Below are positions 39,571 to 48,524 of a stretch of 64,000 nt of DNA, piece by piece; the stretch's first letter is position 1, and each line of letters starts with the position of its first letter. The position numbers and the translations under genes were made by a program. The notes below the pieces were generated by a model. That model searched no databases. It had not been told where the DNA came from and saw only the letters and a list, made by a program, of their open reading frames with translations. The DNA is from Trichechus inunguis (Eukaryota): assembly GCA_046562895.1 (NCBI GenBank), contig CM102164.1:32779842-32843841 (forward strand), read 5' to 3'.

Positions 39571-42338
39571 TTTTTTTTTAATATTTTATTGTACTTCAGG
39601 TGAAGGCTTACAGAACAAATAGTTTCTCATGTAACAGTAGCACACATGCTGTTTTATGACATTGGTTAACAACCCCACAACATTTTAACCCTCTAAATTC
39701 TCAACTTTTTTTTTTTTTGGTGAAAATACACATAGCCAAAGATAGACCATTTCAAAAATTTTTACATACACATTTAAGTGACATTGACTACGCTCTTCTA
39801 ATTGTGCTGTTATTCTCACTTAAGGTGAAGGCTTACAGGACAAAATAGTTTCTCATTTAACAGTTACTACAAATGTTGCCCTATAACAATGGTTAACAAT
39901 CTCACAACACATCAACAATATCCTTACTAAGCCTTGTGTTCCCTATCATCAGCTTCCTACTCCCCTTCTGTCTTCTGGCCCTTGTCACTGGACTCCTGTA
40001 CCTCGTTAGTCTCATTTAGTTTTACTGGGCTGTCCACTCCCAGGCTGAAGAGTGAACCTCGAAGGTAACTTCACCACTGAGCTAAAAGGGTGTCTGGGGG
40101 CCATACTCTTGAGGTTTCTCCAGTCTCCTTTAGGCCAGTAAATCTGGTCTTTTTTTTTTTTTTTTTGTGAGTTAGAATTATGCTCTACATCCTTCTCCAG
40201 CTCTGTCCAGAACCCTCTGTTGTGATCCTGGTCAGAGCAGTCAGTGGTGGTAGCCGGGCACCATCTAGCTGTACTGGACTCAGTCCGGTGGAGGTCTTGG
40301 TAGCTGTGGACAATTAGTCCTTTGGACTAATCTTTTCGTTGTATCCTGTTCTCTTGATTCTCCCTTGCTCCCGAAGGGATGAGACCAGTGGAGTATCTTA
40401 GATGGCCGCTCACAGGCTTTTAAGACCCCAGACACTACTCACCAAGGTAGAATGTAGAGCATTATCTTTATAAGTAGTGTCATGCAAATTGAGCTAGATG
40501 TTCCCCGAGACCATGGTCCCCAGAGCCCTCCGTCCAGCAACTCAGTCCCTCGGGGAGTTTGGATGTGTCCATGGGGCCTCCATGACCTTTCCTTGTACAG
40601 GTTGTGTTAGTTTCCCCTGTATTGTGTACTGTCTCACCTTTCACCCAAGATACCACTTATCTATTGCCTATTTAGTATTCCCCGCCCCACCCCTCCCATC
40701 CCTGGTAACCAACAAGGATTGCTACATTTTGCGTGTGAACTTTTTCATGGGTTTTTACAATAGAGGTCTCATACAATATTTGCCCTTTTGTGATTGACTT
40801 ATTTCACTCAGCATAATGTCCTCCAGTTTCATCCATGTTATGAGATGGTTCACAGATTCATTGTTCTTTCTCGTTGCATAGTACTCCATTGTGTGTATGT
40901 ACCATAGTTGGTTTATCCATTCTTCCGTTGATGGGCACCTATGTTGTTTCCATCGTTTTGCTATTGTGAACAATGCTGCCATGAACATAGGTGTGCATAT
41001 GTCTATTCGAGTGACTACTCTTATTTCTCTAGGATATATTCCTAGGAGTGGGATTGCTGGATCGAATGGTATGTCTATTTCTAGCTTTCTGAGGAAACGC
41101 CATATCATTTTCCAAAATGGTTGTATCATTTTGCATTCCCACCAGCAGTGCTTTCTGAGGAAACGCCATATCATTTTCCAAAATGGTTGTATCATTTTGC
41201 ATTCCCACCAGCAGTGCATAAGAGTTCCCATCTCCCCGCAGCCCCTCCAACATTTGTTATTTCCAGTGTTTTTGATTCGTGCCAGTAATGCTGGGATGAG
41301 ATGGTATCTCATTGTGGTTTTAATTTGCATTTCTCTAATGGCTAGTGATCGTGAGCATTTCCTCATGTGTCTGTTGGCCATTTGAATGTCTTCTTTGGTG
41401 AAGTGTCTGTTCATTTCCTTTGCCCATTTTTTGAAAGGATTGTTTGTCTTTTTGTTGTAGAGGTGTTGGATTTTCTTGTAGATTATGGAGATTAGACCTT
41501 TGTCTGATTTGTACTGTCCAGAAATTTTTTCCCAGTCTGTAGGTTCTCTTTTGACTCTTTTGGTGAAGTCTTTTGAAGAGCATAGGTGTTAGATTTTTAG
41601 AAGATCCCAGTTATCTAGCTTATCTGTTGGGTTTTGTGTGTTGATGGTTATGGTTTGTATCCTGTTAATGCCATGTATTAAGGCCTGAAGTGTTGGTCCT
41701 ATTTTTTCTTCTATGAACTTTATAGTTTTAGGCTTTATATTCAGGTCTTTGATCCATTTTGAAGTCGTTTTTGTATACGGTGTGAGGTATGGGTCCTGTT
41801 TCATTTTTCTGCAAATGGATATCCAGTTTTGCCAGCACCATTTGTTAAAAAGACTGTCTTTTCCCCAATTGATGGACTTTGGGCCCTTGTCGAAAATCAG
41901 GTGGCCGTAGGTGGATGGATTTACATCTGGGTTCTCAATTCGGTTCCATTGGTCAATGTATCTGTCGTTGTACCAGTACCAGGCTGTTTTGACTACTGTA
42001 GCTGTATAGTAGGTTCTGAAGTCAGGTAGTGTGAGTCCTCCAACTTTATTCTTCTTCTTCAGTAGTGCTTTACTTATTCGGGGCTTCTTCCCTTTCCATA
42101 TAAAGTTAATGATTAGTTTTTCCATCTCTTTGAAGAATGTTGCTGGTATTTGGATCGGGATTACATTGTATTTGTAAATTGCTTTGGGTAGACTTGCCAT
42201 TTTCACAATGTTGAGTTTACCTATCCATGAGCATGGTATGTTTTTCCATTTATGTAGATCCCTTTGGGTTTCATGCAGTAGTGTTTTACAGTTTTCTTTG
42301 TATAGGTCTTTTACATCCCTGGTCAGATTTATTCCTAA

Positions 42339-44642
42339 CTATTTTATCTTTTTAGGGGCTATTGAAAATGGTATTGATTTCCTGATTTCCTTTTCATTGT
42401 TCTCCTTACTGGTGTATAGGAATCCAACTGATTTTTGAATGTTTATCTTGTATCCTGCTACTCTGCTGAATCTTTCTATTAGTTCCAGTAGATTTCTTGT
42501 GGAGTCTTTAGGGTTTTCTATGTATAGTATCATATCATCTGCAAACAGGGACAGTTTAACTTCTTCATTACCAATTTGGATGCCCTTTATTTCTTTTTCT
42601 TGCCTTATTGCTCTAGCTAGAACTTCCAGCACAATGTTAAACAGGAGTGGTGATAAAGGGCATCCTTGTCTTGTTCCTGTTTTCAAGGGGAATGTTTTCA
42701 GCCTCTCTCCATTAAGAATGATGTTGGCCATTGGTTTTGCATAGATGCCTTTTATTATGTTGAGAAATTTCCCTTCTATACCTATTTTATTGAGAGCTTT
42801 TATCAGGAATGGGTGTTGGACTTTGTCAAATGCCTTTTCTGCATCAGTTGAGATGATCATGTGATTTTTTTCTCTCCTTTTATTTATGTGGTGTATTACG
42901 TTGATGGATTTTCTAATGTTAAACCATCCTTGCATACCTGGTATGAATCCTACTTGGTCGTGGTGTATTATTTTTTTGATATGATACTGAATTATATTGG
43001 CTAGAATTTTGTTGAGAATTTTTGCATCTATATTCATGAGAGATATTGGTCTGTAATTTTCTTTTTTTGTGATGTCTTTGCCTGGTTTTGGTATCAGCGT
43101 TATGCTGGCTTCATAGAATGAATTTGGGAATGTTTCTTCCTCTTCTATGCTCTGAAATAGCTTGAGTAGAACTGGTACAAGCTCTTCTGTAAATGTTTCG
43201 TAGAATTCTCCAGTGAAGCCATCTGGGCCAGGGCTTTTTTTGGTTGGGAGTTTTTTTATTACCTTTTCAATCTGTTCTCCTGTTATGGGTCTGTTCAGAT
43301 TTTCAATATCACTTTGTTGTAGTTTGGGTAGGCCGTGTGTTTCTAGAAATTTATCCATTTCCTCTAGGTTTTCAAATTTGTTGGAATATAGTTTTTCATA
43401 ATATTCTGTTATAATCCTTTTTATTTCTGTTGGGTCTGTTGTAATGTCCCCCATTTCATTTCTTATTTGGGTTATTTGTGTCCTCTGCTGTTTTTCTTTT
43501 GTCAGTCTGGCCAGTGGTTTGTCGATTTTGTTGATTCTTTCAAAGAACCAACTTTTGGTTTTGTTGATTCTTTCTATTGTTTTTCTGTTCTCTATTTCAT
43601 TTATTTCTGCTCTGATCTTTACTATTTCCTTTCTTCCGGTGGTTGTAGGCGTTTTTTGCTGTTCTCTTTCTATTTGTTTGAGTTCTGTAGTTAATGTTTT
43701 GATTTTGTCCATTTCTTCTTTTTTGATGTGTGCATCTATTGCTATAAATTGTCCTCTGTGGACTGCCTTTGCTGTGTCCCAGAGGTTTTGGTATGATGTG
43801 TTTTCATTCTCATTTGAATCTAGGAATTTTTTGATTCCATCTCTGATTTCTTCTATTACCCATTGATGTGTAAGCAGAGTATTATTAAGTTTCCATGTAG
43901 TTGATTTTTTTTCCTTGCTCTTTCTAGTGTTAATTTCTACCTTGGTGGCATTGTGGTCAGAGAAGATACTGTGAATTATCTTAACGTTTTGGATCTTGTT
44001 GAGGATTGCTCTGTGGCCTAAGATGTGGTCTATTCTGGAGAATGTTCCATGTGCATTGGAAAAGAATGTGTACTTTGCAGCGGTTGGATGGAGTGTTCTA
44101 TATATGTGTATGAGGTCCAGTTGGCTGATTGTGCCCTTTAGGTCTTCTGTATCTTTGCTGAGTTTCTTCTTAGTTGTTCTGTCCTTTACTGAGAGTGGTG
44201 TGTTGAAGTCTCCTACTATTATTGTGGAACTGTCAATTTCTCTTTTCAGTGCTGTTAGAGTTTGTTTTATGTAATTTGGTGCCCTGTCATTGGGTGCATA
44301 GATGTTTATTATGATTATGTCTTCATGATGGATTGTCCCCTTAATCATTATATAGTGTCCTTCTTTGTCTTTTATGGTGGATTTTGTTTTAAAGTCTATT
44401 TTATCTGAGATTAGAATTGCCACTCCTGCTCTTTTTTGGTAGTTGTTAGCTTGATATATTTTTTTCCAACCTTTGATTTTTAATAAATTCACATCTTTGT
44501 TTCTAAGGTGTGTCTCTTGTAGACAGCATATTGATGGATCCTGTTTTCTTATCCATTCTGCCACTCTCCGTCTCTTTATGGGTGCATTGAGTCCATTTAC
44601 ATTCAGTGTTATTATTGATAGATGTAAGTTAGTTGCTGTCAT
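42339..44642 (-). pseudogene. L1 ORF2 (endonuclease + RT) open for its first 768 codons, then disrupted
   Basis: [46 protein letters not shown]...[11 protein letters not shown]...[25 protein letters not shown]...[23 protein letters not shown]...FDKVQHPF...FADDMILY...FSIAPKKIK. The downstream ORF2 parts appear in other frames (41589-42206, 40755-41414). Confidence 0.8.
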
Positions 44643-48250: not shown

Positions 48251-48524
48251 GCGAGGCTGCTCTCCTGTACTCCCGTTTGCTGGTCTTCGATAGGAGTCCA
48301 AGATGGTATCCGCGCTGCGTTAGCTGGTAGGGGACCTCTGCATGAATCTCTCCTTGCTCTCCGTTCTCTTTCAGTATTCTCACTCCGTTTGGTGTTCGGC
48401 TGAGTTCTTTATCTCTTCATTTGATGTTCTAGGGTTTCAGGATTGTTGATTCTCTGGCTTAGTTTTTCGGATCTTTGCTGTGGCCGGACGGCATGGTGCT
48501 TCTGCCTAGAGCGCCATCTTGCCG

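What the first reader, a model, noticed from the sequence alone, without database searches (positions are those of the whole stretch)
39571..48524. Young L1 with intact ORF1 nested inside an older L1, with an 11-bp target-site duplication
L1 copy 2 (38460-39570 and 48525-53990) reads continuously across the junction (...gttgtttctatat | ... | tctatatttttgctattgtgaacaatg...). That shows the 8.9-kb element in between inserted into it. TCTATATTTTT is duplicated at both ends. The inserted element keeps a complete 349-aa ORF1 and 768 uninterrupted ORF2 codons (EN + RT) before frameshifts appear. It is therefore evolutionarily recent and shows that this subfamily was active in the lineage.
Basis: seen in the sequence. 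Interest (0 to 1): 0.5.

Follow-up and report, generated by a model that had tools for sequence, protein, structure and literature searches.

The report
Near-intact L1 nested in older L1
A full-length, almost undamaged LINE-1 retrotransposon (about 9 kb, minus strand) inserted by the usual copy-and-paste route into an older, decayed LINE-1; this is a clean textbook case and an ordinary one for a mammalian genome.

Summary
An 8,957-bp L1 lies on the minus strand at 39575-48531. It is flanked by a perfect 11-bp duplication, TCTATATTTTT (39564-39574 and 48532-48542). With the insert and one duplicate removed, the flanks 38468-39574 and 48543-53991 form one collinear L1, which aligns across the junction as a single HSP to four other L1 copies in the window.

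The insert is full length:
- 5' terminus with a CAAGATGGCG (YY1-type) box, homologous to the start of a Loxodonta L1
- 2.4-kb CpG-rich 5'UTR with 3.7 monomers of about 300 bp
- intact 349-aa ORF1
- 422-nt spacer
- ORF2
- 1.2-kb 3'UTR, AATAAA and a short A-tail

- The right boundary is 7 bp further right.
- ORF2 has no frameshifts. All 1,295 sense codons are in one frame, broken only by two private nonsense transversions and a perfect in-frame 66-bp duplication.

The stop count gives about 0.9% neutral decay. Private 3'UTR changes cap it at about 1.5%. The copy is therefore young but not autonomous. A second, truncated copy of the same subfamily, with a 17-bp duplication, lies at 60224-61004.

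The architecture matches published afrotherian L1s. The species was not identified. Low novelty.

The parts
39564..39574 (.). Target-site duplication, left copy (TCTATATTTTT); also the last 11 bases of the left half of the host L1
39575..39579 (-). Poly(A) tail of the insert, read as a T-run on the + strand. At least 5 nt, and up to 10 nt if the five T of the duplication are counted
39580..40754 (-). 3'UTR (1,175 nt) ending in CAATAAAATATT, which contains an AATAAA signal. The terminal ~230 nt (39580-39801) repeat the preceding unit (39586-39682 vs 39810-39909, 82% identical)
   Evidence: The duplicated 3' end is shared by copies 60227 and 61085 and is absent from older copies 9546, 20870 and the host. 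The 3'UTR can be aligned with a Loxodonta L1
40755..44642 (-). ORF2 (EN, RT, Cys-rich C-terminus): 1,295 sense codons in one frame with two internal stops. Collinear with human ORF2p residues 1-767, 813-1016 and 1075-1268
41084..41217 (-). Perfect in-frame 66-bp tandem duplication (22 aa, [22 protein letters not shown] x2). Private to this copy
   Evidence: 100% match. and 37/38: absent from the other window copies, from human and from the Loxodonta L1
41589..41591 (-). In-frame stop 2 (TAA). Three of the four other copies read AAA (Lys); the host reads ACA (Thr)
42339..42341 (-). In-frame stop 1 (TAG). The four other copies read TAC (Tyr)
44643..45064 (-). ORF1-ORF2 intergenic spacer, 422 nt
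   Evidence: The length matches the long spacers (423-719 bp) reported for elephant, hyrax, opossum and pig L1 (PMC5381506)
45065..46114 (-). ORF1, 349 aa, uninterrupted (coiled-coil region, RRM, C-terminal domain)
46115..48531 (-). 5'UTR, 2,417 nt, GC 55%, 113 CpG, CpG observed/expected 0.62
   Evidence: The ORF1-proximal ~410-480 nt are shared with the host L1 and with contig L002. The first ~140 nt are homologous to the 5' start of a Loxodonta L1
47039..48167 (-). Tandem monomer array in the 5'UTR: 3.7 units of ~295-317 bp, 82-88% alike, GC 62%, CpG observed/expected 0.68
48512..48521 (-). CAAGATGGCG, a YY1-type box 11-20 nt from the 5' end of the element. It is the only AAGATGGCG in the window
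   Evidence: The consensus start of mammalian L1s is given in PMC5381506
48532..48542 (.). Target-site duplication, right copy (TCTATATTTTT); also the first 11 bases of the right half of the host L1
38468..39563 (-). Host (older) L1, 3' part: the 3'UTR and the end of ORF2
48543..53991 (-). Host (older) L1, 5' part: rest of ORF2, spacer, ORF1 and the proximal 5'UTR. Heavily decayed, with 83-112 stops per frame over 48543-53600

Best explanation
A full-length L1 (LINE-1) RNA from a then-active subfamily was inserted by target-primed reverse transcription into the ORF2 3' region of an older, already dead L1 lying in the same orientation.

Mechanism (inferred from established L1 biology; only the product is seen here):
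- The L1 endonuclease nicked the window's + strand after the T-run, ...TCTATATTTTT/GC.
- The T-run primed on the poly(A) tail, and the whole 8.9-kb RNA was copied up to its YY1-box 5' end.
- Second-strand cleavage 11 bp away produced the TCTATATTTTT duplication.

Since insertion this copy has drifted neutrally for roughly 1% divergence. It picked up two nonsense transversions and a 66-bp in-frame duplication in ORF2. It is therefore a very young fossil and not an autonomous element.
For: Shown directly:
- Perfect 11-bp duplication abutting the A-tail on one side and the 5' terminus on the other.
- The flanks are adjacent in L1 coordinates and give single HSPs across the reconstructed empty site against four L1 copies.
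- The two duplicates share host-private substitutions.
- An AATAAA signal and an A-tail at the 3' end.
- The 5' end carries CAAGATGGCG at +11 to +20 and aligns to the start of a Loxodonta L1: 62% identity over ~140 nt, alignment score 31 against a shuffle mean of -13 (sd 5.5).
- Complete L1 gene set: ORF1 domains PF02994 and PF17490, ORF2 domains PF03372 and PF00078, collinear with solved human ORF2p and ORF1p.
- No internal foreign insert: positions 39818-46527 are collinear with the host and with other copies.

Youth:
- No frameshift and only 2 stops in 4.9 kb of coding sequence.
- Both stops are private.
- Maximum-likelihood neutral divergence of 0.86% from the stop count; 5% or more is excluded (P<0.001).
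- 8 private changes in 529 3'UTR sites relative to sister copy 60227.
- CpG-rich 5'UTR.
- The 66-bp duplicates are still 100% identical.
Against: - The A-tail is short (5-10 nt), whereas very recent insertions usually carry long tails.
- The nick site is TTTTT/GC and not the preferred TTTT/AA.
- The central 5'UTR (about 46592-48390, including the monomers) has no second copy in any sequence I could reach. Its L1 origin rests on its position between two regions confirmed as L1 and on its composition.
- The absolute age is uncalibrated, because the species and its substitution rate are unknown and no subfamily consensus was available.
- The perfect 66-bp duplication could be an assembly artefact.
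Confidence: 0.95

Rival explanations
1. The insert is a composite. An L1 body is joined to non-L1 sequence at its 5' side, by 5' transduction from an upstream promoter, by template switching to another RNA, or by a separate GC-rich tandem repeat that landed in the 5'UTR. The true L1 would then be shorter than 8.9 kb.
For: The window holds no second copy of 46528-48531. Contig L002 confirms L1 identity only up to 46591. Beyond the first ~140 nt the Loxodonta L1 5'UTR does not align, at a background 37-40% identity. At 2.4 kb the 5'UTR is longer than the mammalian mean of 1.47 kb (PMC5381506).
Against: The extreme 5' end, right next to the target-site duplication, is the part that is homologous to an L1 start and carries the YY1 box. 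L1 sequence therefore brackets the monomers on both sides. L1 5'UTRs are known to be non-homologous between families, to be GC- and CpG-rich, and to contain tandem duplications in elephant, horse, mouse and rat (PMC5381506). No internal poly(A) or duplication marks a secondary insertion.
Confidence: 0.04
2. This is not a retrotransposition event. The arrangement would come from DNA-level rearrangement (L1-L1 recombination, gene conversion or segmental duplication) or from a mis-assembly that joined reads from different L1 copies.
For: The region is packed with L1 copies in the same orientation, which favours both ectopic recombination and assembly errors. The perfect 66-bp duplication is the kind of feature an assembly error can produce.
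Against: Recombination or conversion between L1s would join homologous positions. Here the 3' A-tail and the 5' terminus of one element abut position ~40950-equivalent of the other. The junctions carry an exact 11-bp duplication of host sequence with host-private variants. That signature is specific to endonuclease-dependent retrotransposition.
Confidence: 0.01

Closest known systems
Recently active afrotherian L1 families (elephant and hyrax full-length L1s described by Boissinot & Sookdeo 2016, PMC5381506; 'AfroLINE' clade of Waters et al. 2007, PMC1764860)
   Same: - Long ORF1-ORF2 spacer: 422 nt here, 423-719 bp reported.
- 3'UTR of about 1 kb: 994 bp reported for elephant.
- GC- and CpG-rich 5'UTR with tandemly duplicated units.
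- 5' start with a CAAGATGGC YY1 box.
- The 3'UTR, the ORF2 C-terminus and the first ~140 nt align with a Loxodonta africana L1.
- The best named ORF1 hits are Elephas, Loxodonta and Trichechus.
   Different: - ORF1 is only 53-58% identical to the elephant and manatee proteins found. Most of the difference lies in the coiled-coil half.
- This subfamily has an extra ~230-nt duplicated unit at the 3' end and ~300-bp monomers, whereas the paper describes ~70-100-bp motifs.
- Species and subfamily name were not determined.
Human L1 (L1HS/L1PA; solved ORF2p structures 8UW3, 8SXT, 8C8J; ORF1p 2YKP)
   Same: - Same domain order and same frame-by-frame collinearity over ORF2p 1-767, 813-1016 and 1075-1268.
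- Motifs that align with the human EN and RT active-site regions are present (QETH, GDFN, SDH, FADD).
- Cys-rich CX3CX7HX4C motif.
- ORF1 RRM and C-terminal domain.
- YY1 box near the 5' end.
- A-tail plus target-site duplication from target-primed reverse transcription.
   Different: - The human spacer is about 40-60 nt, against 422 nt here.
- The human 5'UTR is ~900 nt without monomers and the 3'UTR is ~200 nt.
- This copy has two stops and a 22-aa duplication in ORF2.
Mouse and rat L1 with monomeric 5'UTRs (A, Gf and Tf families)
   Same: The 5'UTR is built from a tandem array of CpG-rich monomers followed by a non-repeated 'tether' upstream of ORF1 (PMC5381506, PMC9022269).
   Different: - Monomers here are ~300 bp, against ~200 bp in mouse and ~650 bp in rat.
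- The array here is preceded by a unique 364-nt 5' segment that carries the YY1 box at the very start, whereas murine elements begin inside a monomer.
- Promoter activity of these monomers is untested.

Membership tests
Mammalian LINE-1 (L1) non-LTR retrotransposon | ORF1 protein with a coiled-coil region, an RRM (Transposase_22) and a C-terminal dsRBD-like domain | tested here: met
   PF02994 E=2e-19 and PF17490 E=1.2e-24. Human ORF1p 2YKP E=1.3e-57 and coiled-coil chain 6FIA E=8.6e-6
Mammalian LINE-1 (L1) non-LTR retrotransposon | ORF2 protein with an APE-type endonuclease, a reverse transcriptase and a Cys-rich C-terminus, in L1 order | tested here: met
   PF03372 and PF00078. Collinear with human ORF2p over 1-767, 813-1016 and 1075-1268. 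FADD, QETH, GDFN, SDH and [18 protein letters not shown] are present in the translation
Mammalian LINE-1 (L1) non-LTR retrotransposon | Insertion signature of target-primed reverse transcription: 3' poly(A), a flanking target-site duplication of about 7-20 bp, and a T-rich nick site | tested here: met
   11-bp duplication, A-tail of 5-10 nt, AATAAA signal, nick after TTTTT. The base after the nick is G and not the preferred A
Mammalian LINE-1 (L1) non-LTR retrotransposon | Full-length 5' end beginning with the G-rich / CAAGATGGC (YY1) start consensus | tested here: met
   GAGGGTCCGGCAAGATGGCG at the 5' terminus. It aligns with the start of a Loxodonta L1. YY1 binding itself is not testable here
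Retrotransposition-competent ('hot') L1 | Both ORFs uninterrupted | tested here: not met
   ORF1 is intact. ORF2 has two in-frame stops and a 22-aa duplication in the Cys-rich region
Afrotherian L1 lineage (AfroLINE) | Long (>400 nt) ORF1-ORF2 spacer, ~1-kb 3'UTR and tandem duplication in the 5'UTR, as published for elephant and hyrax | tested here: met
   422-nt spacer, 1,175-nt 3'UTR and 3.7 monomers, compared with PMC5381506. Opossum and pig L1s also have long spacers, so this feature is not exclusive
Afrotherian L1 lineage (AfroLINE) | Phylogenetic placement inside the afrotherian L1 clade, in a host that is an afrotherian | tested here: inconclusive
   The best named ORF1 hits are Elephas, Loxodonta and Trichechus at 53-58%, ahead of rodents and bats at 37-54%. 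The 3'UTR can be aligned with a Loxodonta L1. The ORF2 search returned only boreoeutherian entries at 62-75% among the 120 hits listed, so afrotherian ORF2s seem barely represented in that database. No tree was built and the host species is unknown

The most novel reading that the evidence does not exclude
The window might come from one of the afrotherian species that a genome survey flagged as candidates for L1 extinction ('four Afrotherian mammals', PMC5203782). In that case a full-length copy only about 1% decayed, with an intact ORF1 and an ORF2 two point mutations away from intact, plus a second insertion of the same subfamily 12 kb away, would place L1 activity within the last few million years in that lineage. 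It would suggest that the 'extinction' is either very recent or an artefact of draft assemblies. The ~300-bp CpG-rich monomer array would then be a candidate lineage-specific promoter acquisition.
Probability: 0.1. Interest if true: 0.35.

Novelty: already known. Interest (0 to 1): 0.12.

Why it matters
Mostly as a clean worked example. Nested L1-in-L1 insertions give an unambiguous relative age, and this one has every hallmark of target-primed reverse transcription.

The practical value is modest:
- The copy is close enough to intact to serve as a template for reconstructing the active progenitor of this subfamily. That would need two base changes and removal of a 66-bp duplication.
- Together with the sister insertion at 60224-61004, it documents recent L1 amplification in the source lineage.
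- It could serve as a presence/absence phylogenetic marker.

None of this challenges current understanding of L1 biology.

Tried and rejected
- **3' transduction.** I first suspected that 39580-39706, which sits between two T-runs, was 3'-transduced flanking DNA. I rejected this because the same ~230-nt terminal block ends copies 60227 and 61085 and is an 82% repeat of the adjacent 3'UTR unit. It is a subfamily feature.
- **Frameshifts in ORF2.** Rejected. All three ORF2 pieces listed are in one frame.
- **Species identification.**
  - The exact-sequence look-up of ORF1 found nothing.
  - The ORF1 homologue search gave elephant and manatee at only 53-58%, plus a 90% partial hit in a contaminated 'Pseudomonas' assembly.
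  - The ORF2 search returned only boreoeutherian L1s at 62-75%.
  - The metagenome scan returned one irrelevant hit at 36% identity.
- **Technical dead ends.** Loci L002 and L003 from the look-up of encoding contigs were not exported to the Python sandbox. I pasted L002 in by hand and studied L003 through DNA alignment and protein comparison only.
- **Literature.** The supplementary tables of PMC5203782, which list the afrotherian species judged L1-extinct, are not held.
- **Long ORFs in the monomer array.** ORFs of 100-268 aa on both strands of the array were dismissed as a by-product of GC-rich tandem repeats.
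Full report
**What is there**

The window is mammalian and L1-rich. A self-BLAST of the claimed insert against the window finds L1 fragments throughout. All of the larger ones lie in the same orientation, with the L1 sense strand on the window's minus strand.

The claimed insert is an L1 whose 3' end is at the low coordinate. A T-run at 39575-39579 is the complement of the poly(A) tail. It is preceded, in the L1 sense, by CAATAAAATATT, which contains an AATAAA signal. The 5' end is at 48531.

**Junctions**

TCTATATTTTT occurs at 39564-39574 and again at 48532-48542.

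In a multiple alignment with four other L1 copies, the left flank ends and the right flank begins on the same 11 alignment columns. The flanks are therefore exactly adjacent in L1 coordinates, with an 11-bp overlap. Both copies of the 11-mer differ from the L1 majority (TCCATCTTTTT) at the same two positions, so they are duplicates of one host sequence.

I joined 38468-39574 to 48543-53991 and ran BLAST against other copies. This gave single HSPs running straight across the junction: 5,971 nt against copy 9546, and likewise against 61085, 6796 and the insert itself. The composition-based chance of the 11-mer match is about 3e-6 per offset.

**Anatomy of the insert (8,957 bp, minus strand)**

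- *5'UTR, 46115-48531 (2,417 nt).* GC is 55%, with 113 CpGs and CpG observed/expected of 0.62.
  - It begins GAGGGTCCGGCAAGATGGCG. The CAAGATGGCG box is the YY1-type motif with which nearly all mammalian L1s start (PMC5381506). It is the only AAGATGGCG in 64 kb.
  - The first ~140 nt align with the 5' start of an L1 taken from the Loxodonta africana assembly: 62% identity, alignment score 31 against a shuffle mean of -13 (sd 5.5). The rest of the two 5'UTRs is at background similarity. This is expected, because L1 5'UTRs are not conserved between families.
  - Positions 47039-48167 are 3.7 tandem monomers of ~295-317 bp, 82-88% alike, with GC 62% and CpG observed/expected 0.68.
  - The ORF1-proximal ~410-480 nt are shared with the host L1 and with a stray mammalian contig.
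- *ORF1, 45065-46114.* It is 349 aa and open, with PF02994 and PF17490 and clear matches to human ORF1p structures.
- *Spacer, 44643-45064 (422 nt).*
- *ORF2, 40755-44642.* Translated in one frame it reads through 1,295 sense codons with only two internal stops. The pieces align with human ORF2p residues 1-767, 813-1016 and 1075-1268, and the intervening residues are also in frame.
  - Motifs that align with the human endonuclease and RT active-site regions (QETH, GDFN, SDH, FADD) and the Cys-rich motif are present. Their catalytic role is my own knowledge of human ORF2p, not a tool result.
  - Both stops are private single transversions. TAC became TAG at 42339-42341, where all four other copies keep TAC. 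At 41589-41591, AAA became TAA: three of the four other copies read AAA and the host reads ACA, so all four keep a sense codon.
  - A perfect 66-bp tandem duplication at 41084-41217 adds 22 in-frame residues inside the Cys-rich region. It is absent from every other copy, from human and from the elephant L1.
- *3'UTR, 39580-40754 (1,175 nt).* Its terminal ~230 nt are a diverged repeat of the preceding unit. I first took this for a 3' transduction. It also ends copies 60227 and 61085, and is missing from older copies 9546, 20870 and the host, so it marks a subfamily.

**Age**

*Relative age.* The insert must be younger than its host. Across the alignable regions the host is 77-88% identical to the insert. 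The host carries 83-112 stops per frame over its ORF1+ORF2 region.

*Absolute decay.* Given the stop-mutation target size of ORF1 and ORF2, observing 0 and 2 stops gives a maximum-likelihood neutral divergence of 0.86%. Values of 5% or more are excluded (P<0.001). Independently, I used the sister copy at 60227 and an outgroup. The insert has 8 private substitutions in 529 3'UTR sites, or 1.5%. This is an upper bound, because it also includes changes in the master lineage.

The retained CpGs and the still-identical 66-bp duplicates agree with this. At typical mammalian neutral rates this means a few million years, perhaps up to about 10. That conversion rests on my general knowledge and not on a measurement, because the species and its rate are unknown. 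The short A-tail (5-10 nt) argues against a very recent event.

**Mechanism**

This is canonical endonuclease-dependent target-primed reverse transcription. The + strand was nicked after TTTTT (TCTATATTTTT/GC). The T-run primed on the poly(A) tail and the full RNA was copied. Staggered second-strand cleavage 11 bp away gave the duplication. Only the product is observed, and the steps are inferred from established L1 biology. The base after the nick (G) departs from the preferred TTTT/A.

**Lineage**

The 422-nt spacer, the roughly 1-kb 3'UTR and the tandem 5'UTR units match what Boissinot & Sookdeo (PMC5381506) report for elephant and hyrax L1. The best named ORF1 relatives are Elephas, Loxodonta and Trichechus at 53-58%. 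The C-terminal half is well conserved and the coiled-coil half is divergent. The 3'UTR can be aligned with a Loxodonta L1.

This supports an afrotherian-type L1 but does not identify the species. The ORF2 search found only boreoeutherian entries among the hits listed. Recent L1 activity in afrotherian lineages is already documented (PMC1764860). One survey lists four afrotherians as L1-extinction candidates (PMC5203782).

**Rivals**

- *Composite insert with foreign sequence in the distal 5'UTR.* This cannot be fully excluded, because no second copy of 46592-48390 was available. L1 sequence brackets it on both sides and its properties are those of an L1 5'UTR.
- *Recombination, conversion or mis-assembly.* These would not produce a duplication of host sequence flanking an A-tail and a 5' terminus.

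**Verdict**

This is an ordinary, well-understood kind of event, so interest is low.

Noticed in passing
window 60207-61021: A second nested insertion of the same young subfamily. It is a 5'-truncated L1 (60224-61004, minus strand, ~780 bp), 95-96% identical to 39571-40351, with an 11-15-nt A-tail. It is flanked by a 17-bp target-site duplication, GACACTGAGCATCTTTT (60207-60223 and 61005-61021), and sits inside an older L1 ORF2 fragment.
   Followed up: partly
window 59685-64000: The older L1 fragment hit by the 60224 insertion is interrupted again about 60 bp further on. There, the T-run and 3' end of another L1 start at 61085 and run off the window end. That L1 belongs to an intermediate subfamily that already has the duplicated 3' end. 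This makes a multi-layer L1 nest.
   Followed up: partly
window 6796-15900: An older L1 piece (6796-9540, equivalent to insert positions 40193-42975) abuts the 3' end of a ~6-kb L1 (9546 to about 15865). This may be another nested insertion. No duplication or continuation of the older copy was looked for.
   Followed up: no
locus L002 (GCA_024054415.1, contig JAMXMA010000123.1, 1-1149): A 1,149-bp contig in an assembly labelled Pseudomonas sp. MOB-449 is 88.6% identical to the insert's proximal 5'UTR plus the ORF1 N-terminus (window 45450-46591). This is mammalian L1 contamination in a bacterial genome record, and its annotated 'hypothetical protein' is an L1 ORF1 fragment.
   Followed up: partly
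window 47039-48400, both strands: Many overlapping ORFs of 100-268 aa lie on both strands of the 5'UTR monomer array. GC-rich tandem repeats produce such ORFs, and there is no evidence that they code for anything.
   Followed up: no
window 44643-44900: The last 258 nt of the ORF1-ORF2 spacer are open in the ORF2 frame and contain upstream in-frame ATGs (44900 and one further downstream). The mechanical ORF is therefore 853 aa, against 767 aa from the conserved Met. Whether these ATGs affect ORF2 translation is unknown.
   Followed up: no
window 38434-38455: A short (GT)n microsatellite followed by TATATA lies a few bases 3' of the host L1's end, where its A-tail would be expected.
   Followed up: no
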